Shown: positions 29 to 11,739 of the stretch, piece after piece
Numbering within the stretch: position 1 is the stretch's first letter
Layout of the letters: the number at the start of each line of letters is the position of its first letter
Source of the DNA: an uncultured Eubacteriales bacterium
GTDB lineage: Bacteria; Bacillota; Clostridia; Oscillospirales; Acutalibacteraceae
Direction: 5' to 3'
Assembly: GCA_934728355.1 (NCBI GenBank)
Contig: CAKVEA010000001.1
Location: forward strand, 412-64,411
Length of the DNA: 64,000 nucleotides
Program-made: the position numbers and the translations under genes
Notes under the pieces: model-generated
The model's database searches: none
What the model was told of the DNA's origin: nothing
What the model saw: only the letters and a program-made list of their open reading frames with translations

Positions 29-2386
29 ATGATTTCTAAACTTGGTTTAGAAAAAATGCAATATTACATTGAAAGAATATATGAAGAACGTAAAAAATGC
101 AATGACGATACTAAAATAACAATTGATAATAATATTAGAGAAATAAATGAAATAATAGACCAAAATACAACAGTTGCAGTATCTGAGTTTATAGGGTCAT
201 TATTAACTAACAGTAAATTTATTCATGTTATTGATAAAATAAAACAAATTGATAAAAAATTTGTAGAAAAATACTATACAGATCTAGAAGACCTTAAAAA
301 TGCTATAATCTATATTAAAAAGATTGACGATAATAATGAAAAATTAAAACTACTCACAGAAGAAGAAAAACAAGAAATAAACAAGTGGGGAAAATGCAAT
401 TATAGCTCAGATAAAGTCAAAGAATTTATAAAGGAGATTAATAAAATGTTTAATAATAATACATCTAGAGATAACATAGTGGATAACTTCAATAAAATTT
501 ATAATGAATGGAAAGAATATTGCGAGGAAAACCAAAGCATAATAGAAAAACTTGAACAAAGCTATAAAAATGATAAAGATAACATTGACAAACTATGTAG
601 TCTTTATGAAAAGGGTATTCAATACGAAGACCGTGAATTGGTAAATGGAAAAAGTATGGAATACCTCATTAAATCTATAAATCGTTTTAAATCAAAAATT
701 CAAGACATAAACCCTTCAGTAAATGAAAAAAAACAAAACAGCCGTGAAGATGAAACTTATTGGAATAATTTATATTACGACTCCAGTAGTTCCACTAAAT
801 ATCTTGAAGAGAGTAATAATGTGCTTGCGGAAGGTTTGAAATCAGTTTCTAATGAGTACAGAAATATTATTAAAAAATACGATACTGCACACAATAAATT
901 TATTTTTGGTAGAAATAAGCCTACTGAACATTTTATTAAAAAGAAACTTAAAGAACTGAAAGAATTGTCAAATATGGCATACAAGGCCAATTTGTCTAAA
1001 AATCCATCAACGGTAGAGAAACTACCAGAGAAAACTACAAATGCAATTTTAGATACAGATGCATGCTTAGAATCTCTTGATTTCATGAACTACGGTCTTA
1101 GATTTCTTTCTGAAATAATTTCATGCTCTTTTATGAGTAGATTAAATGAAGAAACATATGAAAAAATTTATAATGACTTTTTAGAAAAATTAAAAGCTAA
1201 TGCTCAATCTCGCAATCTCAGTTCTATTGACGAGGAAGATTTCGCATCACAAATGTTCTTGGAACTTTACTATAAAATTTTAAAATCAACTAACTATAAA
1301 AGTTTATTGAGAAATAGAACAGAATTACAAGAACTTGAAAGAATAAGAGCAGCAGATGCCACAAAAGAAAAACATAGTCAAAAAGAATACGAAGAAGAAG
1401 ATGATGATGATGAAGAGTTTAAAGAAATTGAAAACAACTTTACTTCTGAAACCGAAACAATTGAATCCGAAGAAGATGATGATGAAGAGTTTAAAGAGTC
1501 TGAAAATGAACATACTTCAAATGGAAAAGAGGTATTAGCAAAAAGAGAAGAATTACTCGCAAAAACAGTCAATGAAAAGAATCTTATAGCAAAAAAAATG
1601 TCTAAAAGCCAAAAACTAAAGGATATACATTCACTTTACAAAAAGCTTTTAGAGGGCTATCGCTCTTCTAAAAAAACATCAACTATAAGATTTAACATTG
1701 ACAGCAAAAAAGGCATAATAGACTGTTTAAAAAGCAATGTCTTAAAAGAAAGATCGAAAGATAGTTTTTTCTCTAAATCAAATTTCTATGCTAAATTAAT
1801 AATAGCGCATTTAGAAAAAGCTTTGGCTCTTAGCAAAGAAGGAGATCAAATTTTTAAAAAGTATAGTGATAAAGATAAATTAAAGAATTTAGAGCCCAAA
1901 GTAAAAATTGCTAAAGAGGAAATGAAAATTGCAACAAGAAAAGTATACTCTATTAATAATGAAAACTATTTCAAGACTATCATTCCTAAATCGGAATCAG
2001 TATGTAAGGAATTAAAACACTATCTAAAAAAGTATGCCGCTACCGTTAAGAAATCAAAAAATAAAAATGCTCAGTTAGCTGCAAAGAAATATCTTAGTCT
2101 TTTAGACAAAGTAGTTAAATCTAATCAAAAAGCCGACTATATTAATACCAATCTCGAAAAACTTATGTTAAACTATAAAGGTAAAGATATAAAATCAGGG
2201 GTACCCATGTTTGCAGAAGAAGGCTTAAATAAAATTTTACGTGCAATCGTATCTGACACAAGCTTTTCTCTTGCAATAGGAATGCATAGTTGTATCCATT
2301 TTTACTTCAGTCAAATTGAAGAAATCAAAACCGAAGAAACAAAACTTAAAGAACTTAAACCTATAGACGATGCTATAAGTCAATAA
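29..2386 (+). CDS. Hypothetical K/E/N-rich coiled-coil protein with an internal acidic repeat. The frame is open back to base 2, so it may be 5'-truncated by the window edge.
   Basis: 785-aa ORF with no catalytic motif recognised. Heptad-like K/E/L/I composition and a duplicated EEDDDEEFKExEN block. A terminator hairpin follows at 2403-2427. Confidence 0.6.
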   Translation: MISKLGLEKMQYYIERIYEERKKCNDDTKITIDNNIREINEIIDQNTTVAVSEFIGSLLTNSKFIHVIDKIKQIDKKFVEKYYTDLEDLKNAIIYIKKIDDNNEKLKLLTEEEKQEINKWGKCNYSSDKVKEFIKEINKMFNNNTSRDNIVDNFNKIYNEWKEYCEENQSIIEKLEQSYKNDKDNIDKLCSLYEKGIQYEDRELVNGKSMEYLIKSINRFKSKIQDINPSVNEKKQNSREDETYWNNLYYDSSSSTKYLEESNNVLAEGLKSVSNEYRNIIKKYDTAHNKFIFGRNKPTEHFIKKKLKELKELSNMAYKANLSKNPSTVEKLPEKTTNAILDTDACLESLDFMNYGLRFLSEIISCSFMSRLNEETYEKIYNDFLEKLKANAQSRNLSSIDEEDFASQMFLELYYKILKSTNYKSLLRNRTELQELERIRAADATKEKHSQKEYEEEDDDDEEFKEIENNFTSETETIESEEDDDEEFKESENEHTSNGKEVLAKREELLAKTVNEKNLIAKKMSKSQKLKDIHSLYKKLLEGYRSSKKTSTIRFNIDSKKGIIDCLKSNVLKERSKDSFFSKSNFYAKLIIAHLEKALALSKEGDQIFKKYSDKDKLKNLEPKVKIAKEEMKIATRKVYSINNENYFKTIIPKSESVCKELKHYLKKYAATVKKSKNKNAQLAAKKYLSLLDKVVKSNQKADYINTNLEKLMLNYKGKDIKSGVPMFAEEGLNKILRAIVSDTSFSLAIGMHSCIHFYFSQIEEIKTEETKLKELKPIDDAISQ
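1388..1510 (+). repeat. Imperfect direct repeat encoding two acidic blocks (EEEDDDDEEFKEIEN / EEDDDEEFKESEN) inside the first CDS
   Basis: The string gatgatgatgaagagtttaaaga occurs twice about 75 nt apart. Confidence 0.8.
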
Positions 2387-2434: not shown

Positions 2435-3913
2435 TTATAATATTATGCACACTAAGCCGTTACATCCTTCATTAATTACTTTTTCTATAGTTTCTTTAAT
2501 TTTGTCTCTTGCTTCCGGAGGCATTCTATAAAGTTTATTGTGAAGACCCTCATTAACCAACTCATGAAGTGATTTCCCAAAAATATTTGATTCCCAAATT
2601 TTAGAAGGATTTTCTTCAAATTCACGAAGTAAATAACTAACTAGCTCTTCCGATTGCTGTTCTGAACCAACTATAGGTGTAACCTCGGTTTCTATTGTTG
2701 TCTTCATCATATGTACTGAAGGAGCAGATGCTTTTAAACGTATACCGTACTTTCCGTTTTGTTTTATTATTTCCGGCTCGTCAAGATGAAGTTCCTGCAT
2801 TGTCGGCATAACTATTCCATAACCACTTTGATCTACTTCCTCATATGCTTCAGCAATTCTTTCGTATTTTTGTTTTGTTTTAGAAAGATCCATCATGCAC
2901 TGCATAAGCGAAGTTTCATCTTTAACGATTATTCCCGTTTTTTCGCCCAAAACTTTAAAAAACAGTGATGGATTCAAAGCAACATTAATTCTTATAATTC
3001 CCTTTCCGAGGTCAACCGAAGATACTGCTGCAGAATCTATATATTCACATTCAAGCATATTATCTACCATTTCTTGAATTTGACTTATTTTGGAAATATC
3101 TTTTGCTGTATTTTTTATACATGAATAAACCGAATTTCTAAGCCAATGATCTTTTTCAAGAGGACTAAGCCATTTTGGCATATCTATTTTAATTTCTTTA
3201 ATAGGGAACTCAAAAAGTAGCTCCGCTAAAATTCTTTTTATTTCATTTTCATCCATTTCGCTACAATTAACAGGCACTACAGGAACACCGTACTTGGTAG
3301 AAAGTTTATTTGAAAGCTCTTTTACTTGATCACTGTAAGGATAAGTACTGTTAAGTAAAATTATAAAAGGTTTATTTATTTCTTTAAGTTCATTAACAAC
3401 TCTTTCTTCAGCCTCTTCATATTCACTTCTGTCTATATCACTGATGCTTCCGTCAGTTGTGATTACAAGGCCGATTGTAGAATGATCGGTTATAACTTTT
3501 TTCGTTCCTATTTCTGCTGCCATATTAAAAGGTATTTCCTCTTCATACCACGGAGTCATGACCATTCTTGGTTGATCATCTTCTATATAGCCGAGAGCAC
3601 TTGGAACTATATACCCAACACAATCAATCATTCTAGCTTTAAAGCTTGCAGCATTATCAATATTAACTTCAACCGCATCTTCGGGAATAAATTTAGGCTC
3701 GGTAGTCATGATTGTTCTTCCTGCAGCAGATTGCGGAAGTTCGTCAATGGCTCTTTCTTTTTGAACATCATCTGAAATATTTGGAATAACCAAAGTATCC
3801 ATAAACTTTTTTATAAACGTGGATTTTCCTGTACGAACCGGTCCGACTACCCCAATGTAAATATCCCCTCCGGTTCTTTGCGAAATATCTTTATATATGT
3901 TACGTTCTTCCAC
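2435..3913 (-). CDS. spoIVA: Stage IV sporulation protein A (spore coat morphogenetic ATPase)
   Basis: 492 aa. Walker A GVVGPVRTGKSTFIKKFM. Colinear over the whole length with B. subtilis SpoIVA as I recall it, including DELPQSAAGRTIMTTEPKF and the C-terminal NEGCNGLVCIIL. Confidence 0.95.
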   Translation of the reverse strand: MEERNIYKDISQRTGGDIYIGVVGPVRTGKSTFIKKFMDTLVIPNISDDVQKERAIDELPQSAAGRTIMTTEPKFIPEDAVEVNIDNAASFKARMIDCVGYIVPSALGYIEDDQPRMVMTPWYEEEIPFNMAAEIGTKKVITDHSTIGLVITTDGSISDIDRSEYEEAEERVVNELKEINKPFIILLNSTYPYSDQVKELSNKLSTKYGVPVVPVNCSEMDENEIKRILAELLFEFPIKEIKIDMPKWLSPLEKDHWLRNSVYSCIKNTAKDISKISQIQEMVDNMLECEYIDSAAVSSVDLGKGIIRINVALNPSLFFKVLGEKTGIIVKDETSLMQCMMDLSKTKQKYERIAEAYEEVDQSGYGIVMPTMQELHLDEPEIIKQNGKYGIRLKASAPSVHMMKTTIETEVTPIVGSEQQSEELVSYLLREFEENPSKIWESNIFGKSLHELVNEGLHNKLYRMPPEARDKIKETIEKVINEGCNGLVCIIL

Positions 3914-3966: not shown

Positions 3967-5502
3967 TTATTTCATAGGAATTAAAAGCATGCAATCGCTT
4001 TTTATTTTGTCTTCTGAAAGATCATTTTCTTCTTTAACCATACTTGCCGATGTATGATAATTTCTTGCAATATCCCAAATATTTTCATCTTTTGAAGCAT
4101 AATAAACAGTCAAACATGCACTGTCTTTTTCTATAGCTTTGGATTCATCCGCAGTAACATCTTTAACCATATTGCATTTTTGGCATGAATATACTTCACC
4201 AGAAAACTCAAATTCAAAATTCATTTCAATACTGTTTGAACTCGAAATGCTACAGTTAACCGCCAAAGGAATTATTTCGCTTTCACATTCCAAACAGCCT
4301 GAAAAATTTTCATATGATTTAGAATGATTAAATTCAAAAATTCTTTCTATAAATATAGGGATGCCTTCATTGTCAAGAGCTAAAACACCTATAGTGACTT
4401 TAAATTTAAAAACAAGCTTTCCATTTTCTTCGGTAGTATTTACATTGCAGTTGTCGCTCCAAGAATCTATAATTTTCGAAATATTCATATCCGATAAATT
4501 TATATTATCTTTATGATTCAAATTTTCTTTGAAAATATCTATAAGATAATTTAATTTCAAAGGATGCTTGGAAACTTCAAGATTGTAATCTGTTGAATAA
4601 ACATCTGAAACTACAGAAATATCTTTGTCGCTATAAGCCATTACCATTGCGGATATCTTTATTTCGCTTGATATATATCCCGGATTATCATCATTTTCGG
4701 TACAAACTTGTTCATCATGACTAAGAACCGCTCCGTCAATTATACATCTTGATTCTTCGGTGATTCCAGGGACGTCTATTATTTGGCTTATAGGTATAGA
4801 GCAATTTAAAGCTTCTGTTTCACCCGAAGATATATTGCTTATATAGAGAATTTTTAGTATGGCTTCACCTTTGATAACTGTTTTTCCTGCCATATTTTTG
4901 TAGTCTTTTAAAACTAAATAAACATCTGAATTTATTATTGATTCAGCAGGTTTTCCTTCTTCTGTTTCTATTATTTCACTAATTGAAAATTGCTGCTGAC
5001 CTATTCCTGCAAGACTATTTAATTTCATATCCGATATTTTTTGTTGAATATCATTTCCGTTTACATTTGAAGAAATTTCTAGATTTTCTTTTTTATAGAT
5101 TTTTGCACAAATTGAAATTGCCCCGTGAATGTCAAGCTTTCTGGGACTTACAGCTCTACAGTTAACATAATCGACTTTTAAAGCGGTGACTGCAAATGCA
5201 TTTTCCGGGGTTGATCTTATATCTATTGAACAAGAAAAAGGAATAGCATTTTCACAACACCTTGTCTTTTTATTTTCCGAATCAACATATATAACTCTTA
5301 TTTTAGAAACTCCTTCAATATTTAAGCGATCACCGGAAATATTTTTAGAAGTTATGTTTGGGCAAACACGGCATTTTAAAATTCTTTGTATATCAGGGCA
5401 ATAATCAGGAAGGGAAAAATCTAAATCTACAGGGATTTCCTTATTTCCTTCAAACACCAATCCTCTAACCGACAACGCATTTTTACTGACGTCATAATTC
5501 AT
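3967..5502 (-). CDS. SipL/SpoVID-like spore morphogenetic protein (SPOCS/DUF3794 repeats plus C-terminal LysM)
   Basis: 511 aa. DUF3794-type signature (LPDYCPDIQRILKCRV...VIYVD) and a C-terminal LysM-like segment (LTVYYASKDENIWDIARNY...LLIP). Immediately downstream of spoIVA on the same strand. Confidence 0.6.
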   Translation of the reverse strand: MNYDVSKNALSVRGLVFEGNKEIPVDLDFSLPDYCPDIQRILKCRVCPNITSKNISGDRLNIEGVSKIRVIYVDSENKKTRCCENAIPFSCSIDIRSTPENAFAVTALKVDYVNCRAVSPRKLDIHGAISICAKIYKKENLEISSNVNGNDIQQKISDMKLNSLAGIGQQQFSISEIIETEEGKPAESIINSDVYLVLKDYKNMAGKTVIKGEAILKILYISNISSGETEALNCSIPISQIIDVPGITEESRCIIDGAVLSHDEQVCTENDDNPGYISSEIKISAMVMAYSDKDISVVSDVYSTDYNLEVSKHPLKLNYLIDIFKENLNHKDNINLSDMNISKIIDSWSDNCNVNTTEENGKLVFKFKVTIGVLALDNEGIPIFIERIFEFNHSKSYENFSGCLECESEIIPLAVNCSISSSNSIEMNFEFEFSGEVYSCQKCNMVKDVTADESKAIEKDSACLTVYYASKDENIWDIARNYHTSASMVKEENDLSEDKIKSDCMLLIPMK

Positions 5503-6404: not shown

Positions 6405-9038
6405 TTAAAAATGTTTTTCCTTTGAATTCCAAAAATGTTTTTCTAACTCAGAAACAAGAATAGGTGATGCGGCTAAAACAAAAACTATAAGCCATTCAAA
6501 CAAATTGAGAGGTGTAGTTCTGAAAAATCCGTTTAAAGAAGGAATGGCTATTGAAGCTATTTGTAAAAAAATACAGAAGAAAATAGAATAAACCAATTTC
6601 ATATTGCTTGTAAATCCCGTAACAAAAAGCGATTTTTTACTTTGAACATTAAACGCATGCATAAGTTGACTAAGTCCTAAGGTTGCAAATGCCATAGTTC
6701 TACCCACAATAGGATCTTGTGGATTTAAATCAAAAAACACTCTTCCGACAGTATAAGAAAGGAATCCGATAGACGCTATAAAACAACCTTCAATTAAAAT
6801 GTTATACCTCATGGTACCCGAAAAAAAGTTTTCTTTACTGAAAATAGGAGGCCTTTTCATTATGTCGGGATCTATTGGGTCGACACCTAATGCAAGTGCC
6901 GGAAAAGCATCAGTTACCATGTTTATCCACAAAAGATGAACAGCAAGTAGCGGAGTAGGCACCTTTATTAAAAAAGCAATTAAAACCACCATTACTTCTC
7001 CGATGTTAGTTGAAATCAAAAAATGTATAGTCTTTTTTATATTCTCAAACATTCCTCTTCCCTGTTTAACTGCTTCAACTATTGTTGCAAAGTTATCATC
7101 TGCTATAACCATATCCGATGCGGATTTTGCGGCATCAGTGCCGAATTTTCCCATAGCACACCCTATATCTGCGGATTTGAGCGCCGGTGCATCATTCACT
7201 CCATCTCCCGTCATTGCAACAACATATCCCTTGCGTTGAAAGGCTTTAACTATTTTAACTTTATGTTCCGGAGATACTCTTGCAAAAATGCTGTAAGAAT
7301 CTATTTTTTCATAAAGTTCATCATCAGTCATTTTAGAAATTTCCGGTCCTGTTATAAACTTAGAATCATCATCAAAAAGATCGATGGATTTTCCTATTGC
7401 AATAGCGGTTTTTGCATGGTCTCCCGTAACTATAACAGGTTTTATACCTGCTTTTTTACATTCCCGTACTGCCAATTTTGCTTCAGGTCTGATAGGGTCT
7501 TCCATACCTATGACCGCACAAAAAATCAAATCGTTTTCTAAAGAAGATTCTTCTTTTTCTAAAATTTGAGTATCTTTGTATGCGATTGATATTATTCTTA
7601 ATGCTTTTGAGGACATTTCATTTGTAATTTGTTCAATTTTTTTCAGTACATCACATGTTATAGGAACCAGCTTACCATTGTCTACATACCACCTACACTT
7701 TTTAATAACAACATCTGCCGCACCTTTAGTTATGATTTTATACTTATCTTTCTTAACCTTATGTACAGTAGTCATTAATTTTCTCGAAGAGGTAAAAGGT
7801 ATTTCAAAAATTCTTTTGAATCTGCGATTTAAATCGGATTTATCAATTTTTGATTCCATAGCCGCAGAAAAAAGTGCATTTTCTGTCGGCTCGCCTTTAA
7901 CCTCCGAGCCTATCATTACAGAATTATTGCAAAGCATTCCTAGGCTTAAAATCTTTTTTGAAAAATCACTTCTTAAATTTTCTTCACCTTTAACAGAGTA
8001 AATTTCTTTGACTTTCATCTTATTCATTGTCAGTGTTCCTGTTTTATCAGAGCAAATAACCGCTGTATGCCCCAATGTTTCAACTGCAGGTAAATTTCTT
8101 ACTATAGTATTTCTGGCAGCCATTTGCCTGACTCCGCCCGCAAGGACTATAGTTACCACTGCAGGAAGTCCTTCGGGGATTGCCGCAACCGCTAAGCTTA
8201 TTGAAATCATAAACATTTCCATAAAATCAACATCTTGAATTATTCCCAAAACAAAAACTACAATACAAACGATTATTATGAATATTCCTAAAATTTTACC
8301 TGTAGCTTCAAGACGTTTGCTAAGTGGTGTTTTGAAACTTTTCTCATTGTTTATAAGACATGCAATTTTACCGACTTCTGTATTCATTCCCGTACTTGTA
8401 ACAACTGCTTTTGCATGACCTCTTGTAACTATGCTCCCAGAAAAAACCATATTTTTCATATCTGAAATGGATCCGCTTGAATTGCAAGAATGTTCATTTT
8501 TTTCTATACTGAACGATTCTCCTGTTATCGTAGACTCTTCAATAAAAAATCCGGCAGATTCTATAATTCTCGCATCTGCGCAAACAAAATCCCCCGTTTT
8601 AAGTATCAAAATGTCTCCTGGGACTAAATCTTCGGAATTTATCTTTTGACCACGAGAATTTCTAAATACCTTTGCATGCGGAGAAGAAAGCTTTTTAAGA
8701 GAGTCTATAGCTTTTTCTGCTCTGCTTTCTTGAAGTATTCCTATTACGGTGTTCAAAATAACTATAAAAAGAATAATTAAAGCATCTATATAATCATTAC
8801 TTCCCTTTATATACGAAATAACAAGTGAAACTATAGCTGCAACAAGTAAAGTCACAACCATAAAGTCCGAAAGTTGTTTTAAAAGCTTTTTCATGAATCC
8901 ATTATTTTCCTCATGTGTAAGTTCATTTTTCCCGAACTTCATTCTTCGTTTTTTTACTTCAATGTCCGAAAGACCAAAATTTGAATCAACACTAAGTTTT
9001 TTTAACACTTCACTTACAGACATCTGACTAAAATTCAT
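6405..9038 (-). CDS. Cation-transporting P-type ATPase, type IIA (Ca2+-ATPase-like)
   Basis: 877 aa. Motifs TGES, CSDKTGTLT, PEGLPAVVT and TGDGVNDAPALK, with multiple TM segments at both ends. Confidence 0.9.
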   Translation of the reverse strand: MNFSQMSVSEVLKKLSVDSNFGLSDIEVKKRRMKFGKNELTHEENNGFMKKLLKQLSDFMVVTLLVAAIVSLVISYIKGSNDYIDALIILFIVILNTVIGILQESRAEKAIDSLKKLSSPHAKVFRNSRGQKINSEDLVPGDILILKTGDFVCADARIIESAGFFIEESTITGESFSIEKNEHSCNSSGSISDMKNMVFSGSIVTRGHAKAVVTSTGMNTEVGKIACLINNEKSFKTPLSKRLEATGKILGIFIIIVCIVVFVLGIIQDVDFMEMFMISISLAVAAIPEGLPAVVTIVLAGGVRQMAARNTIVRNLPAVETLGHTAVICSDKTGTLTMNKMKVKEIYSVKGEENLRSDFSKKILSLGMLCNNSVMIGSEVKGEPTENALFSAAMESKIDKSDLNRRFKRIFEIPFTSSRKLMTTVHKVKKDKYKIITKGAADVVIKKCRWYVDNGKLVPITCDVLKKIEQITNEMSSKALRIISIAYKDTQILEKEESSLENDLIFCAVIGMEDPIRPEAKLAVRECKKAGIKPVIVTGDHAKTAIAIGKSIDLFDDDSKFITGPEISKMTDDELYEKIDSYSIFARVSPEHKVKIVKAFQRKGYVVAMTGDGVNDAPALKSADIGCAMGKFGTDAAKSASDMVIADDNFATIVEAVKQGRGMFENIKKTIHFLISTNIGEVMVVLIAFLIKVPTPLLAVHLLWINMVTDAFPALALGVDPIDPDIMKRPPIFSKENFFSGTMRYNILIEGCFIASIGFLSYTVGRVFFDLNPQDPIVGRTMAFATLGLSQLMHAFNVQSKKSLFVTGFTSNMKLVYSIFFCIFLQIASIAIPSLNGFFRTTPLNLFEWLIVFVLAASPILVSELEKHFWNSKEKHF

Positions 9039-9161
9039 ATTTTCATCTCCAACGACCTTACTTTATTTTTTACTTTTTCTTACTTAGATAAATATATAAA
9101 TTTTTAGTGGTACATATTACTCACTTTTTCAATATATCTTGAGAACATTTCATAAAAGTAT

Positions 9162-9189
9162 TTGAAAAACCGTAAAGTTATGATAGAAT
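9162..9189 (+). promoter_or_regulatory. Sigma-A type promoter for the SCIFF operon
   Basis: TTGAAA, a 16-nt spacer, then TGaTAGAAT (extended -10), about 35 nt upstream of the scfA ATG. Confidence 0.55.
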
Positions 9190-9224
9190 ATAGAGTGAAA
9201 TTTTTATGTAAATGGAGTGAAATT

Positions 9225-9365
9225 ATGAAACACATTAAAACAGTCACAACTAAGGACCTCAAAAAAACAGTTTTAACCGGTGGTTGCGGTGAATGTCAAG
9301 CTTCTTGCCAAACAGCTTCTAAGGTTGACAATACCGTTAATAACCAAAAATGTGAATGCAAATAA
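9225..9365 (+). CDS. scfA: SCIFF-family ranthipeptide precursor (six-cysteine peptide family), variant with only five Cys
   Basis: 46 aa, MKHIKTVTTKDLKKTVLTGGCGECQASCQTASKVDNTVNNQKCECK. It has the hallmark MKHIKT...GGCGECQxSCQ core. GGAG lies 8 nt upstream of the ATG at 9225. The longer TTG-initiated ORF in the track is rejected. Confidence 0.85.
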   Translation: MKHIKTVTTKDLKKTVLTGGCGECQASCQTASKVDNTVNNQKCECK

Positions 9366-9390
9366 CTAAAAAGAAAAGATAGGTGAATTT

Positions 9391-9428
9391 TCGGCTTCTT
9401 TCTTAATGATAGAAAGCCGACATTTTTT
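9391..9428 (+). terminator. Imperfect hairpin plus T-run between scfA and scfB (candidate leaky terminator/attenuator)
   Basis: tcggctt(c)tttct...agaaagccga, followed by cattttttATG. The T-run abuts the scfB start codon. Confidence 0.45.
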
Positions 9429-10793
9429 ATGATACATAAATTTAAATTTGAAAATACTAATTTTGTAATAGACGTAAATAGCGGATCAATTCATATAGTT
9501 GATGACGTTTTCTATGATATTCTTGATTTAATTCCCGGAAATTTTTTTGACTATACTAAATCATACATAATAAAAAAATTAGAAAATAAATATCCTTTAT
9601 CCGAAATAGAGGAAGCATATCAAGAAGCTTTTTCTCTTTATAAAGATGAAAAACTTTTTTCTAAAGACATCTATGAAAAAATTGTTTCTGAAAAAACAAT
9701 TTTATCTCCTATAAAAGCAGTGTGTTTAAATGTTGCTCATGATTGCAATCTAAAATGCAGTTATTGCTTTGCATCAAAAGGAGATTTCAAATGTAAAAGA
9801 GAATTAATGAGCCTCGAAACCGCAAAAAACACAGTAGACTTTTTAATTGCCAATTCAGGGAATATAAAAAATCTTGAAATGGATTTCTTTGGCGGTGAGC
9901 CTTTAATGAATTTTGAAGTAGTAAAAGAAACAGTAAAATATGCCAGAAGTATGGAAAAAATTCACGGAAAAAATTTCAGATTCACAATAACAACCAACGG
10001 TATACTTCTTGATGATGAAAAAATAGATTTTATAAATAAAGAAATGTATGATGTTGTTCTTTCTTTAGACGGGAGAAAAGAAATAAACGACCTTTTCAGA
10101 TTAACAAAGGTCGGTACAGGATCATACGATTTGATTATTCCAAAATTTAAAAAACTAGTTTCACTAAGAGGTGAAAAACAATACTACGTAAGAGGAACAT
10201 ACACAAAGAAAAATCTAGATTTTTCTAAGGATGTCTTTCATATTTATAATTTAGGATTTAGTCAAATTTCCATGGAACCCGCACTTTCAAAAGAAGAATT
10301 TGGATTTGCAATAGATGAAAACGATTTACCCAAAGTACTCAAAGAACACGAACTTCTTTGCAAAAAACTTATAGAAATGAAAAAAAGTGGCAGCGACATA
10401 AATTTCTTTAATTTTAATATCAGTATAAATAACGGCCCTTGCATTTCAAAAAGATTGAAAGGATGCGGTTTCGGAAACGATTATATAGCGGTTACTCCAA
10501 GCGGAGATATATATCCTTGTCACCAATTAATAGGTGAAAATAACTTTTTAATGGGAAATGTAAATAAGAATTACTTTAATAATGAGCTTAAAAATGAATT
10601 CCTTAATTTAACTGTTTATCACAAAGAAAAATGTAAAAACTGCTGGGCTAAATTTTATTGCTGTGGAGGTTGCAGCTCTAAAAATTATCAATTCAACGGA
10701 AATTTAAAATCTCCGTTCAGTATTACGTGCGAACTTCAAAAGAAAAAAATAGAATGTTCCATTGCGTACAATGTTTTAAGCGGTAATGTTTAA
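9429..10793 (+). CDS. scfB: Radical SAM/SPASM peptide maturase of the SCIFF system
   Basis: 454 aa. N-terminus MIHKFKFENTNFVIDVNSGSIHIVDD is typical of ScfB. Radical SAM CNLKCSYC. Cys-rich C-terminal SPASM region (CGFGN..., CKNCWAKFYCCGGC). Confidence 0.9.
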   Translation: MIHKFKFENTNFVIDVNSGSIHIVDDVFYDILDLIPGNFFDYTKSYIIKKLENKYPLSEIEEAYQEAFSLYKDEKLFSKDIYEKIVSEKTILSPIKAVCLNVAHDCNLKCSYCFASKGDFKCKRELMSLETAKNTVDFLIANSGNIKNLEMDFFGGEPLMNFEVVKETVKYARSMEKIHGKNFRFTITTNGILLDDEKIDFINKEMYDVVLSLDGRKEINDLFRLTKVGTGSYDLIIPKFKKLVSLRGEKQYYVRGTYTKKNLDFSKDVFHIYNLGFSQISMEPALSKEEFGFAIDENDLPKVLKEHELLCKKLIEMKKSGSDINFFNFNISINNGPCISKRLKGCGFGNDYIAVTPSGDIYPCHQLIGENNFLMGNVNKNYFNNELKNEFLNLTVYHKEKCKNCWAKFYCCGGCSSKNYQFNGNLKSPFSITCELQKKKIECSIAYNVLSGNV

Positions 10794-10799
10794 AATCAT

Positions 10800-11567
10800 T
10801 TATTCTTTAATTTTAGATATTGCATTTTTTTCAAGTCTTGAAACCTGTGCTTGACTGATTCCTATTTTATTGGCAACTTCAATTTGAGTTTTTCCCTCTA
10901 AAAATCTTAGTGTAAGTATGCTTTTTTCTCTGTCGTTTAAATCATTTAGAGCTTGTTTTATAGATATTTCATCTATCCAATTTATATCATCGTTATTGTC
11001 TCCTATTTGATCCATAACATAAACAGTGTCTCCGTTGTTATCTGAAAAAATCGGTTCATCAAGAGAAATGGGCTCAACTATAGATTCAAGTGAAAGAACA
11101 ATAGATTCTTTGGATACACCCATTTCAACCGCTATTTCTTCTATTGTAGGTTCTCTGTTTTTATCATGTGTAAGTCTTTCTTTAATTTTCATGGCTTTAT
11201 ATGCAGTATCACGCATAGAACGACTAACCCGTACGGAGTTATTGTCTCTTAAATATCTTCTTATTTCCCCTATTACCATTGGTACTGCATATGTTGAAAA
11301 TCTAACATTTTGATTTACATCAAAATGATCAATTGATTTTATTAATCCTATACATCCGATTTGGAATAAATCTTCAAGAGCTTCCCCTCGACCGGTAAAT
11401 CTGTGTACTATACTTAAAACAAGTCTTAGATTGCCATTTATAAGTTTTTCTCGTGCGTATTTGTCTCCGGTTTTAACTTTTTTCAGAAGTTCAATTTTTT
11501 CTTTTTCCGGCAAAAGTTTTAAATCAGAAGTATTTACTCCGCAAAGCTTGACTTTACTATATTGCAT
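10800..11567 (-). CDS. sigG: Sporulation sigma factor SigG (forespore, late)
   Basis: Near-colinear with B. subtilis SigG as I recall it (KVKLCGV..., REKLINGNLRLVLSIVHRF, FSTYAVPMVIGEIRRYLRDNNSVRVSRS, ISQAQVSRLEK). Start set at MQYSKV (ATG 11567) with GGGGGA 10 nt upstream. Confidence 0.85.
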   Translation of the reverse strand: MQYSKVKLCGVNTSDLKLLPEKEKIELLKKVKTGDKYAREKLINGNLRLVLSIVHRFTGRGEALEDLFQIGCIGLIKSIDHFDVNQNVRFSTYAVPMVIGEIRRYLRDNNSVRVSRSMRDTAYKAMKIKERLTHDKNREPTIEEIAVEMGVSKESIVLSLESIVEPISLDEPIFSDNNGDTVYVMDQIGDNNDDINWIDEISIKQALNDLNDREKSILTLRFLEGKTQIEVANKIGISQAQVSRLEKNAISKIKE

Positions 11568-11739
11568 GATTATTTTATCCCCCGCTTCCAATGCTTTCCA
11601 TATCATTATTGACAGAAAAATAAAAATTCATTCAGTATAGTAAAAATTAACTTTATAATTTTATCCTTTTTCAATAAAGTACCGCATATAGTTTATAGAA
11701 ATAAAATTTTAAAGAAAAAGGAGCAAGCGGACACAACCT

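What the first reader, a model, noticed from the sequence alone, without database searches (positions are those of the whole stretch)
9225..9365. SCIFF precursor lacks two of the six canonical cysteines, including the recalled crosslink donor Cys32
The peptide is clearly SCIFF-like (MKHIKT...GGCGECQxSCQ) and is followed by an apparently intact ScfB radical SAM/SPASM maturase. Against the canonical core GGCGECQTSCQSACKTSCTVGNQxCE, this one reads GGCGECQASCQTASKVDNTVNNQKCECK. That gives Ser at position 32 and Asn at position 36 in place of Cys, with an extra Cys at 45. From memory of the CteA/CteB and Tte1186a/Tte1186 work, the only characterised thioether is Cys32-Thr37. Thr37 is retained here but its sulfur donor is not. 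There are three possible explanations: the maturase uses another Cys, it forms a different link (for example an ether from Ser32), or the system is decaying.
Basis: partly seen in the sequence, partly recalled or inferred. Interest (0 to 1): 0.65.

Follow-up and report, generated by a model that had tools for sequence, protein, structure and literature searches.

The report
Conserved four-cysteine SCIFF peptide lineage
This small peptide gene is a real, strongly conserved variant of the widespread clostridial SCIFF peptide that lacks the only cysteine ever shown to be cross-linked, so its intact partner enzyme must modify it at a different site, probably one repeat further upstream.

Summary
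Window 9225-9365 encodes a 46-aa SCIFF precursor, followed by an intact ScfB radical SAM/SPASM maturase (9429-10793). The peptide has Ser32 and Asn36 where the family has Cys. It also has Val34 where every sampled six-Cys SCIFF has Thr.

It is not decay or sequencing error. The same core, CGECQASCQTASKV(D/E)NTVxNQxCE, occurs in about 25 protein clusters and in 16 GTDB species of uncultured gut Clostridia. Core pN/pS is 0.014, and Ser32, Val34, Thr30 and Thr37 each use all four synonymous codons.

The partner ScfBs form one clade (100/100 bootstraps). They keep every Fe-S cysteine. They carry fixed changes at six positions that are invariant in 60 canonical ScfBs, plus a new Cys122.

Two reviews report that in vivo work assigned Cys32-Thr34. 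Neither link can form here.

All 412 SCIFF domains I sampled keep at least one in-register Cys-x-Thr unit. This clade lost Cys32-Lys-Thr34 and gained the otherwise rare Cys28-Gln-Thr30. My best guess, which is inferred and not shown, is a relocated Cys28-to-Thr30 thioether.

Cys32 loss is not unique: other independent Ser32 SCIFF groups exist. I rate this a new variant of a known kind, of moderate interest.

The parts
9162..9189 (+). Promoter-like site upstream of scfA: TTGAAA, 16-nt spacer, TG-extended TAGAAT.
   Evidence: It matches 10 of 12 consensus positions. This is a consensus match only; the count of such sites in the region is not above the shuffled expectation.
9214..9217 (+). GGAG Shine-Dalgarno, 7 nt before the scfA ATG.
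   Evidence: Read directly from the sequence.
9225..9365 (+). scfA, the SCIFF precursor (46 aa plus stop). The leader is codons 1-20 (9225-9284) and the core is codons 21-46 (9285-9362).
   Evidence: TIGR03973 scores 62.8 bits against a cut-off of 50; PF13165 scores 59.3 against 27.
9306..9314 (+). Cys28-Gln29-Thr30, the only in-register Cys-x-Thr unit left in this core and the predicted relocated thioether site.
   Evidence: Thr30 occurs in 1 of 45 distinct six-Cys cores but is fixed in this clade, encoded by all four ACN codons.
9318..9332 (+). Ser32-Lys33-Val34-Asp35-Asn36, replacing canonical Cys32-Lys-Thr34-Ser-Cys36. The published donor Cys and the Thr34 acceptor are both lost.
   Evidence: Across 17 clade members Ser32 uses four TCN codons, Val34 uses four GTN codons, Asp35 is D in 16 and E in 1, and Asn36 uses both codons.
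9333..9335 (+). Thr37, the retained residue that is the in vitro-assigned acceptor.
   Evidence: Thr37 is not conserved family-wide: it is Gly in 14 of 45 six-Cys cores.
9357..9359 (+). Cys45, an extra C-terminal Cys restricted to a subclade.
   Evidence: It is present in the window, L001, L002, L012, L013 and L015. It is absent from L003-L011, L016 and L066.
9391..9428 (+). Stem-loop (9391-9420, about -12.7 kcal/mol) followed by a U-run that abuts the scfB ATG. It is a likely attenuator or terminator that lowers scfB expression relative to scfA.
   Evidence: One search gives a weak z-score of -1.6 for this locus alone. A hairpin plus U-run in the scfA-scfB spacer recurs in nearly all variant and canonical loci despite different sequences.
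9429..10793 (+). scfB, the radical SAM/SPASM maturase (454 aa). The CX3CX2C motif is at 9744-9767 and the SPASM cysteines C338-C443 lie in 10440-10757.
   Evidence: All 13 conserved Cys columns are intact in the clade.
9792..9794 (+). Clade-specific Cys122 of ScfB, in the loop after the radical SAM motif.
   Evidence: Cys is present in 18 of 18 clade ScfBs and in 0 of 60 canonical ScfBs.
9864..10748 (+). Span holding the six clade-fixed ScfB replacements at canonically invariant positions: I146 (9864-9866), D208 (10050-10052), N328 (10410-10412), D351 (10479-10481), K418 (10680-10682) and K440 (10746-10748).
   Evidence: The canonical residues are R, N, H, E, N and R in 59-60 of 60 sequences.
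6405..9038 (-). Ca2+-type P-type ATPase, divergent from scfA. It is a conserved neighbour within the variant clade.
   Evidence: The ATPase-scfA-scfB order is seen in 12 related loci. It is not part of the RiPP system as far as can be told.
10800..11606 (-). sigG (sporulation sigma factor), convergent with scfB. This is chromosomal sporulation and housekeeping context.
   Evidence: NF006071, 393 bits against a cut-off of 372. Synteny is kept in L001-L003.

Best explanation
This is a functional, lineage-specific four-cysteine SCIFF (ranthipeptide) system in a clade of uncultured, sporulating, low-GC gut Clostridia.

scfA is transcribed from its own promoter. A hairpin and U-run in the scfA-scfB spacer probably let only part of the transcription or translation continue into scfB.

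ScfB keeps its RRE domain, its radical SAM cluster and both SPASM clusters. It therefore still binds the MKHIKT leader and performs radical chemistry on the core.

The published Cys32-to-Thr34/Thr37 thioether cannot form, because Cys32, Thr34 and Cys36 are all replaced. I infer that the cross-link has moved one four-residue repeat upstream. In this model Cys28 ligates auxiliary cluster 1 and is joined to the side chain of Thr30, in a Cys-x-Thr unit equivalent to canonical Cys32-Lys-Thr34. The enzyme would have co-evolved to accept the new register and the new downstream segment (SKVDN).

Shown here: the sequence, its conservation, purifying selection, the monophyly and intactness of ScfB, and the clade-fixed enzyme changes. 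Inferred: that a thioether is still made, and where.
For: Family membership and intact partner:
- Both genes pass their curated family cut-offs and are adjacent.

The variant is a conserved clade:
- 25 protein clusters at 90% identity carry the same core, with diverged leaders.
- 16 GTDB species loci plus the window carry it. Every ScfB that is at least 65% identical to the window's is paired with it.
- All 55 more distant ScfBs with a visible peptide are paired with six-Cys cores, apart from L061 and L063.

Purifying selection:
- Pooled core pN/pS is 0.014 at pS 0.70, against 0.335 for the leader.
- Ser32, Val34, Thr30 and Thr37 each use all four synonymous codons.

The enzyme has co-evolved:
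- The variant ScfBs are monophyletic in 100 of 100 NJ bootstraps.
- All Fe-S cysteines are kept.
- 6 of 101 canon-invariant columns are fixed to a different residue, and Cys122 is new.

The Cys-x-Thr pattern:
- All 412 sampled SCIFF domains keep at least one in-register Cys-x-Thr unit.
- Other Cys32-less types keep Cys24-x-Thr26.
- This clade has Ala26, so its only ancestral unit was Cys32-Lys-Thr34. It alone carries Cys28-Gln-Thr30.
- Among 45 distinct six-Cys cores, Thr34 is present in 45, Thr30 in 1 and Thr37 in 30.
- P0030, an independent one-repeat deletion variant that lacks Thr34, also has Thr30.
- The only peptide with no Cys-x-Thr unit (L063) sits next to a frameshifted scfB.

Literature:
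- The fourth Cys is the donor and the ligand of auxiliary cluster 1, and the in vivo acceptor was assigned to Thr34.
Against: - No chemistry was measured. The native product of any SCIFF is unknown, and the reviews say it is open whether other Cys are cross-linked.
- The Thr30 gain together with the Cys32/Thr34 loss is essentially one evolutionary event (two counting P0030). The Cys-x-Thr rule was found post hoc in a sample biased towards the top hits of three searches. It therefore has no real statistical weight.
- The Thr34 assignment is known to me only through two reviews. The primary papers were not available.
- The strict conservation of Asp35, Asn36 and Thr37 is not explained by a Cys28-Thr30 link. 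It could mean that those residues are the real acceptors.
- The six enzyme substitutions could not be placed relative to the active site. R146 and N208 precede beta-strands and may be structural.
- A second, canonical scfA elsewhere in these genomes was not excluded.
Confidence: 0.45

Rival explanations
1. A thioether is still made, but with different partners. One of the four universally conserved Cys (Cys28 or Cys43) would be joined to one of the residues newly fixed in this clade, or to a nearby one: Asp35, Asn36, Thr37 or Asn40. This would resemble PapB or QhpD (Cys to Asp/Glu) or NxxcB (Cys to Asn).
For: - Asp35 and Asn36 are new, strictly conserved, and of the residue types used as acceptors by related ranthipeptide enzymes.
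- The only substitution seen at position 35 is Asp to Glu (L003). I recall, from memory and not checked here, that PapB tolerates this exchange.
- ScfB is related to the PapB and QhpD families (273 and 262 bits).
- Asn40-Gln-x-Cys43 is an NxxC motif that is invariant in all SCIFFs.
- Clade-fixed changes at invariant enzyme positions fit a changed acceptor.
Against: - The spacings Cys28-X6-Asp35 and Asp35-X7-Cys43 do not match the strict CX3D rule reported for PapB.
- The NxxC motif is not specific to this clade.
- This reading does not explain why Thr30 became fixed.
Confidence: 0.2
2. The Cys32 cross-link is an accessory feature of SCIFFs. The essential function, and possibly other ScfB-dependent modifications, would rest on the four invariant Cys (21, 24, 28, 43) and on Asn40/Gln41. 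This clade would simply have dispensed with the accessory link, and residues 30-39 would be conserved for another reason such as target binding or peptide conformation.
For: - Cys21, Cys24, Cys28, Cys43, Asn40 and Gln41 are invariant in every SCIFF sampled, including all Cys32-less groups.
- Cys32 has been lost independently at least twice more (L061 and the Ser32/Cys36 group; the Ser32/Ser36 group).
- Only one cross-link has been seen, and only in heterologous or in vitro systems. Reviews flag the native product as unknown.
Against: - It does not explain the Cys-x-Thr retention pattern.
- It does not explain the clade-specific changes at invariant ScfB positions.
- No modification other than the Cys32 link has ever been observed.
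Confidence: 0.2
3. Ser32 replaces Cys32 as the donor, and ScfB makes an ether (Ser32 O to a carbon of Thr37 or a neighbour). This would be analogous to the Thr-O to Gln C-alpha ether made by the radical SAM enzyme TqqB.
For: - Cys to Ser is the isosteric replacement, exactly at the donor position. It is strictly conserved and encoded by four codons.
- Thr37 is retained.
- Radical SAM ether formation from a side-chain alcohol has precedent (TqqB).
- Most Cys32-less groups have Ser at position 32, and L063 has Thr.
Against: - The donor Cys acts by ligating the open iron of auxiliary cluster 1. A Ser hydroxyl is a poor ligand for that iron.
- Ser is the commonest single-step replacement of Cys in any case.
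- The few clusters with Arg, Phe or Tyr at position 32 show that position 32 need not carry a nucleophile.
- The ScfB paired with the Ser32/Cys36 peptide in L061 shows none of the six clade-specific enzyme changes.
Confidence: 0.08
4. The locus is decaying, or the two non-Cys codons are sequencing or assembly errors.
For: - The sister lineage L063 has a different degenerate core and a frameshifted scfB. Decay does therefore occur near this clade.
Against: - Core pN/pS is 0.014 with saturated synonymous change.
- The same core occurs in 25 clusters and 16 species loci.
- The identical protein is found on four contigs.
- scfB is full length with all catalytic Cys.
- The promoter-like site, the Shine-Dalgarno and the attenuator hairpin are all present.
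Confidence: 0.02

Closest known systems
CteA/CteB (thermocellin, Acetivibrio/Clostridium thermocellum; PDB 5WGG) and Tte1186a/Tte1186
   Same: - The two-gene layout is the same.
- The MKHIKT leader and the GGCGECQxSCQ start of the core are the same.
- The maturase aligns over its full length with CteB (E 1.7e-158).
- The radical SAM and SPASM cysteines are all present.
   Different: - The core lacks Cys32 (the published donor), Thr34 (the in vivo acceptor) and Cys36.
- The core has Thr30, Val34, Asp35 and Asn36.
- The enzyme differs at six positions that are invariant in 60 canonical ScfBs including CteB, and it has an extra Cys122.
Other Cys32-less SCIFFs found here (Ser32/Cys36 'CQSASKTSC[S/G/A]V', Ser32/Ser36 'CQSASKTSSGV', and tandem-fused forms)
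   Same: - The donor Cys32 is replaced by Ser.
- They still match TIGR03973 (71-79 bits).
- The Ser32/Ser36 type also has only four Cys.
   Different: - They keep Thr34 and Thr26.
- They have an independent origin. The one such ScfB in my set, L061, branches far from this clade and keeps all six canonical residues.
PapA/PapB (freyrasin), QhpC/QhpD and NxxcA/NxxcB ranthipeptide-type thioether systems
   Same: - They are related radical SAM/SPASM enzymes (273 and 262 bits to the PapB and QhpD models).
- Their acceptor residue types (Asp, Glu, Asn) are the ones newly fixed in this core.
   Different: - Scores are below those families' cut-offs.
- The peptide has no CX3D repeats.
- The peptide leader is SCIFF-type.
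TqqA/TqqB (aliphatic ether rotapeptide)
   Same: It offers a possible chemistry if Ser32 were the donor: a side-chain oxygen joined to a carbon by a radical SAM enzyme.
   Different: TqqB belongs to a different enzyme family (Twitch type) and acts on an unrelated peptide. Nothing here supports this link beyond the Cys-to-Ser change.

Membership tests
SCIFF precursor (TIGR03973 / PF13165) | Profile score above the curated cut-off. | tested here: met
   TIGR03973 scores 62.8 bits against a cut-off of 50. PF13165 scores 59.3 against 27. This is about 20 bits below canonical members, which score 82-86.
SCIFF precursor (TIGR03973 / PF13165) | A peptide of about 45 residues with an MKHIKT-type leader and a GGCGEC start to the core. 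| tested here: met
   The peptide is 46 aa. It aligns to 24 other SCIFFs with no gap in the core.
SCIFF precursor (TIGR03973 / PF13165) | Six cysteines at core positions 21, 24, 28, 32, 36 and 43. | tested here: not met
   Cys is present at positions 21, 24, 28 and 43 only. Position 32 is Ser and position 36 is Asn. The extra Cys45 is not conserved in the clade.
SCIFF precursor (TIGR03973 / PF13165) | Encoded immediately upstream of an ScfB maturase. | tested here: met
   scfB starts 63 nt after the scfA stop codon.
SCIFF precursor (TIGR03973 / PF13165) | A thioether from the fourth Cys (Cys32) to Thr34 or Thr37. | tested here: not met
   The sequence has no Cys32 and no Thr34, so this link is impossible. 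Whether any cross-link forms cannot be tested with these tools.
ScfB maturase (TIGR03974) | Profile score above the cut-off, and not the 'not_ScfB' exception family. | tested here: met
   TIGR03974 scores 645 bits against a cut-off of 425. NF040492 scores 559.7, below its cut-off of 855.
ScfB maturase (TIGR03974) | The CX3CX2C radical SAM motif and the full set of SPASM cysteines. | tested here: met
   C106, C110 and C113 are present, as are C99, C338, C346, C364, C402, C405, C411, C415, C434 and C443. Each is conserved at 100% in the clade.
ScfB maturase (TIGR03974) | An N-terminal leader-binding (RRE) domain. | tested here: met
   Residues 1-90 align with the CteB N-terminal domain. Leader binding itself was not tested.
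ScfB maturase (TIGR03974) | The residues that are invariant across canonical ScfBs. | tested here: inconclusive
   95 of 101 canon-invariant columns are kept. Six are fixed to another residue: R146I, N208D, H328N, E351D, N418K and R440K. Their structural location was not determined.
Ranthipeptide class (radical non-alpha thioether peptides) | A Cys sulfur linked to a beta- or gamma-carbon of another residue. | not testable with these tools
   This needs MS/MS or NMR of the modified peptide.
SCIFF locus with the TIGR04086 membrane protein | A TIGR04086-family gene next to scfA, as seen in relatives. | tested here: not met
   The gene is present directly upstream of scfA in 21 canonical relatives. 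It is absent from the variant loci and from the whole 64-kb window.

The most novel reading that the evidence does not exclude
In this clade ScfB no longer makes a Cys-to-Thr thioether. It would instead perform a chemistry new to the SCIFF family: an ether from Ser32, or a Cys-to-Asp/Asn thioether onto the newly fixed Asp35 or Asn36. The six replaced invariant residues and the new Cys122 would have retuned the active site. That would be a natural example of a radical SAM/SPASM maturase switching bond type or acceptor within one orthologous lineage.
Probability: 0.25. Interest if true: 0.75.

Novelty: new variant of a known kind. Interest (0 to 1): 0.52.

Why it matters
SCIFF is one of the most widespread RiPP systems in Clostridia, with at most one per species (preprint 10.1101/2025.02.12.637840). 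Its native product and function are still unclear. Only one thioether has been seen, and its acceptor assignment is disputed (Thr37 in vitro, Thr34 in vivo).

A conserved lineage that lacks Cys32, Thr34 and Cys36 but keeps a co-evolved maturase is a natural experiment on three questions:
- Which residues are truly required. Cys21, Cys24, Cys28, Cys43, Asn40 and Gln41 are the universal set.
- Which acceptor assignment is right. Thr34 is invariant in 45 of 45 six-Cys cores, Thr37 in only 30 of 45.
- Where to look in this peptide. The pattern gives a concrete, cheap prediction: a -2 Da link at Cys28-Thr30.

The six diagnostic enzyme positions are candidates for determinants of substrate register in ScfB-type enzymes, which are being developed as peptide-cyclisation tools.

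There is also an annotation consequence. These four-Cys peptides pass the equivalog cut-off and so would be labelled 'six-cysteine ranthipeptide SCIFF'.

Tried and rejected
- **Primary papers.** Hudson 2019, Bruender 2016, Grove 2017 and Haft & Basu 2011 are not held. The cross-link assignments therefore rest on two reviews and one 2023 paper.
- **50%-identity representative library.** It reported 1,437 SCIFF representatives but lists only the 150 best. Nearly all of those are six-Cys peptides with mis-called N-terminal extensions. It gave no unbiased census of positions 32 and 36.
- **L063 as convergent evidence.** I first read L063 as an independent loss of Cys32/Cys36 with convergent enzyme changes at positions 208 and 328. 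The tree shows it is the sister of the variant clade (96/100), and its scfB is frameshifted. I dropped the convergence argument.
- **Cys45 as a compensating donor.** Rejected, because it is not conserved in the clade.
- **Terminator scan.** The simple scan found nothing in 8900-11000. Folding gave only z = -1.6 for the window's hairpin. The feature is supported by its recurrence across loci and not by its energy.
- **Other scans.** The Rfam and tRNA scans of the window found nothing.
- **First tree attempt.** It timed out and I redid it with my own distance code.

Full report
**1. What is at the coordinates**

Window 9225-9365 (+) is an ATG-started 46-codon ORF. It is preceded by GGAG (9214-9217) and by a promoter-like TTGAAA-16-TG-TAGAAT site (9162-9189). 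It encodes MKHIKTVTTKDLKKTVLTGGCGECQASCQTASKVDNTVNNQKCECK.

The peptide matches the SCIFF models above their curated thresholds:
- TIGR03973: 62.8 bits against a cut-off of 50.
- PF13165: 59.3 bits against a cut-off of 27.

Canonical members score about 20 bits higher, at 82-86.

Sixty-three bases downstream, 9429-10793 encodes a 454-aa protein. It scores 645 bits on the ScfB model TIGR03974 (cut-off 425) and does not reach the 'not_ScfB' exception model. It aligns end to end with CteB, PDB 5WGG (E 1.7e-158).

A gap-free alignment with other SCIFFs places Ser at position 32 and Asn at position 36, where the family has Cys. Thr37 is retained and there is an extra Cys45. Two further differences were missed: Thr34 is Val and Ser30 is Thr.

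**2. What the literature actually says**

Two reviews (PMC8326336, PMC8172795) report the following:
- In vitro, Tte1186 and CteB each make a single thioether, Cys32-Thr37.
- Co-expression of CteA and CteB in E. coli gave Cys32 linked to the gamma-carbon of Thr34.
- The discrepancy is unresolved.
- It is open whether the other cysteines are ever cross-linked.

A 2023 study showed that the selenocysteine analogue of this same (fourth) Cys binds auxiliary cluster 1 of Tte1186 (PMC10177961).

The fourth Cys is therefore the donor in every account. In the window peptide it is Ser. The in vivo acceptor Thr34 is also gone. I could not read the primary papers.

**3. It is a conserved clade, not an accident**

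A protein search with the peptide returned 30 clusters at 90% identity. Twenty-five of them carry the same core, CGECQASCQTASKVDNTVxNQxCE, behind clearly diverged leaders.

A scan of one genome per GTDB species with the window's ScfB returned 80 loci.
- **Close relatives.** In all 17 loci whose ScfB is at least 65% identical (L001-L016, L066), the upstream peptide is the variant wherever it is visible (16 loci).
- **More distant relatives.** Of the remaining loci with a visible peptide, 55 have six-Cys cores. The exceptions are L061 (Ser32 only) and L063.
- **Source organisms.** These are uncultured 'Ruminococcaceae/Eubacteriales/Clostridia' MAGs from human (UMGS, Hadza) and goat guts.
- **The window itself.** It is 31% GC and lies on a metagenome scaffold.

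Across 17 variant genes the core is invariant, apart from D/E at position 35, N/S at 39 and K/E at 42. Synonymous sites are close to saturation. Ser32 uses all four TCN codons, Val34 all four GTN codons, and Thr30 and Thr37 all four ACN codons.

Pooled Nei-Gojobori values are pN/pS 0.014 for the core (pS 0.70) and 0.335 for the leader. Decay and sequencing error are excluded.

**4. The maturase co-varies**

In an NJ tree of 75 ScfBs (with CteB), the variant-associated enzymes form one clade in 100 of 100 bootstraps. The clade is nested among Oscillospirales-type ScfBs.

All radical SAM and SPASM cysteines are kept.

Of 101 alignment columns that are at least 98% invariant in 60 canonical ScfBs, six are fixed to a different residue in the clade: R146I, N208D, H328N, E351D, N418K and R440K. 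Cys122 is present in 18 of 18 clade members and in 0 of 60 others.

L063 is the sister of the clade (96/100). Its peptide, CQSATKTEPDTANQKCE, also lacks Cys32 and Cys36. Its enzyme has I208 and S328 but keeps the other four canonical residues. Its scfB carries a frameshift in the RRE region on a 3.3-kb contig. This could be decay or an assembly error. I therefore treat the loss of Cys32 and Cys36 as one ancestral event, not as convergence.

I could not determine where the six positions lie in three dimensions.

**5. How rare is it?**

Profile searches found at least 7,995 SCIFF clusters with one query (capped at 8,000 candidates) and 5,635 with another. The 50%-identity library holds 1,437 representatives.

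Against that, about 25 clusters carry this core. That puts it on the order of 0.3% or less of SCIFF sequence clusters. This is a rough figure, because only the best hits are listed.

Loss of Cys32 is not unique to this clade:
- A separate group has CQSASKTSC[S/G/A][V/I]ANQxC (Ser32, Cys36). At least 30 single-domain clusters were listed, some of them seen on dozens to over a hundred contigs.
- A Ser32/Ser36 four-Cys type exists (P0037-P0039, P0291).
- A few clusters have Arg, Phe or Tyr at position 32.

The one ScfB of this kind in my set (L061) branches far from the variant clade and keeps all six canonical residues.

**6. A pattern that suggests the mechanism**

The SCIFF core is a four-residue repeat: C24-Q-T/A-S, C28-Q-S-A, C32-K-T-S, C36-T-V-G.

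In all 412 SCIFF domains I could inspect, at least one in-register Cys-x-Thr unit is present:
- Canonical cores have Cys32-x-Thr34, with or without Cys24-x-Thr26.
- Every other Cys32-less type retains Cys24-x-Thr26.
- Only this clade has Cys28-x-Thr30.

The clade and its nearest canonical relatives have Ala26. Their only unit was therefore Cys32-Lys-Thr34. The clade lost Cys32 and Thr34 and fixed Thr30.

Among 45 distinct six-Cys cores:

| Position | Residue | Distinct cores |
|---|---|---|
| 34 | Thr | 45 of 45 |
| 37 | Thr | 30 of 45 (Gly in 14) |
| 30 | Thr | 1 of 45 |

A separate one-repeat deletion variant (P0030, CQASCQTACKVANQPC) also lacks Thr34 and has Thr30. The only peptide without any such unit is L063, next to the frameshifted scfB.

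This favours the in vivo Cys32-Thr34 assignment for canonical SCIFFs. For this clade it predicts a relocated Cys28-to-Thr30 thioether.

The argument rests on one or two evolutionary events and on a biased sample. It is a lead, not a demonstration. It also leaves the strict conservation of Asp35, Asn36 and Thr37 unexplained. For that reason I keep substantial weight on two alternatives: different partners, or an accessory link.

**7. Locus anatomy and context**

A stem-loop plus U-run lies between scfA and scfB (9391-9428; -12.7 kcal/mol). Equivalent hairpins occur in nearly all variant and canonical loci despite unrelated sequences. This fits an attenuator that keeps the precursor in excess over the enzyme.

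In the window the U-run abuts the scfB ATG. The only purine-rich stretch upstream lies in the 3' arm of the stem.

The neighbours are chromosomal sporulation and housekeeping genes: spoIVA, a PdaB-like deacetylase, a Ca-type P-type ATPase, sigG, a D-Ala-D-Ala carboxypeptidase, a pseudouridine synthase and pheST. There is no protease or exporter.

The ATPase-scfA-scfB order is conserved in the clade. The TIGR04086 membrane-protein gene sits directly upstream of scfA in 21 canonical relatives. It is absent from the variant loci and from the whole window.

**8. Verdict**

- 'Decay' is rejected, 'another Cys' is favoured, and 'ether' is possible but unlikely.
- The locus is a new, conserved variant of a known system, and it is not the only SCIFF lineage without Cys32.
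- Its value is as a natural experiment on what ScfB really does, with a specific prediction that can be tested by routine co-expression and mass spectrometry.

Noticed in passing
Proteins P0298-P0398; locus L061 about 3558-3730: A second, independent and apparently more abundant Cys32-less SCIFF group has the core CQSASKTSC[S/G/A][V/I]ANQxC (Ser32, Cys36, no Thr37). A few further clusters have Arg, Phe or Tyr at position 32. All keep Thr34 and Cys24-x-Thr26. Sources still name them 'six-cysteine' SCIFF.
   Followed up: partly
Proteins P0031-P0043 and P0063: Precursors of 85-108 aa contain two complete SCIFF units (leader plus core) fused in tandem. Many are of the Ser32 type, and P0037-P0039 are Ser32/Ser36, giving four Cys per unit.
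   Followed up: no
Six-Cys cores in all fetched proteins: Thr37, the in vitro-assigned acceptor, is Gly in 14 of 45 distinct six-Cys cores. Thr34, the in vivo-assigned acceptor, is invariant in all 45. This bears on the unresolved discrepancy in the literature.
   Followed up: yes
L063 315-1787: In the sister lineage of the variant clade the peptide is MKHIRTLSKPILKESIIKGGCGECKSSCQSATKTEPDTANQKCEK, with no Cys32 or Cys36 and no Cys-x-Thr unit. Its scfB has a frameshift in the RRE region. This could be a decaying system or an assembly error on a 3.3-kb contig.
   Followed up: partly
Proteins P0005 and P0030: P0005 is a variant-clade precursor with an internally duplicated core (…CECQASCQTAPKVDNTVSDQECECCK). 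P0030 is a SCIFF with one four-residue repeat deleted (CQTACKVANQPC); it lacks Thr34 and has Thr30.
   Followed up: no
Window 9792-9794 (ScfB Cys122): A new cysteine lies in the loop after the CX3CX2C motif. It is present in all 18 clade ScfBs and in none of 60 canonical ones. L063 has a Cys two residues upstream. Its role is unknown.
   Followed up: partly
Relatives L017, L024, L027-L032, L034-L038, L040, L041, L043, L054, L055, L064, L074 and L076, just upstream of scfA: A TIGR04086-family small membrane protein gene (67.5 bits against a cut-off of 30) directly precedes canonical scfA in 21 loci. It is missing next to variant scfA and from the whole 64-kb window.
   Followed up: partly
Window 9411-9431: The scfB ATG (9429) directly follows the U-run of the scfA hairpin. 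The only purine-rich candidate Shine-Dalgarno (AGAAAG) lies inside the 3' arm of the stem. This suggests that scfB translation is limited by the same structure. The window, L001, L003 and L012 share this tight arrangement.
   Followed up: partly
Window 29-2386 (+) and 3967-5502 (-): Two large ORFs (785 aa and 511 aa) have no NCBIfam match at E 0.01 or better. The second lies between spoIVA and the PdaB-like gene, and that position is conserved in L008 (53% identity).
   Followed up: no
Window 1-64000: No tRNA gene and no Rfam family at gathering score were found in the whole 64-kb window.
   Followed up: yes
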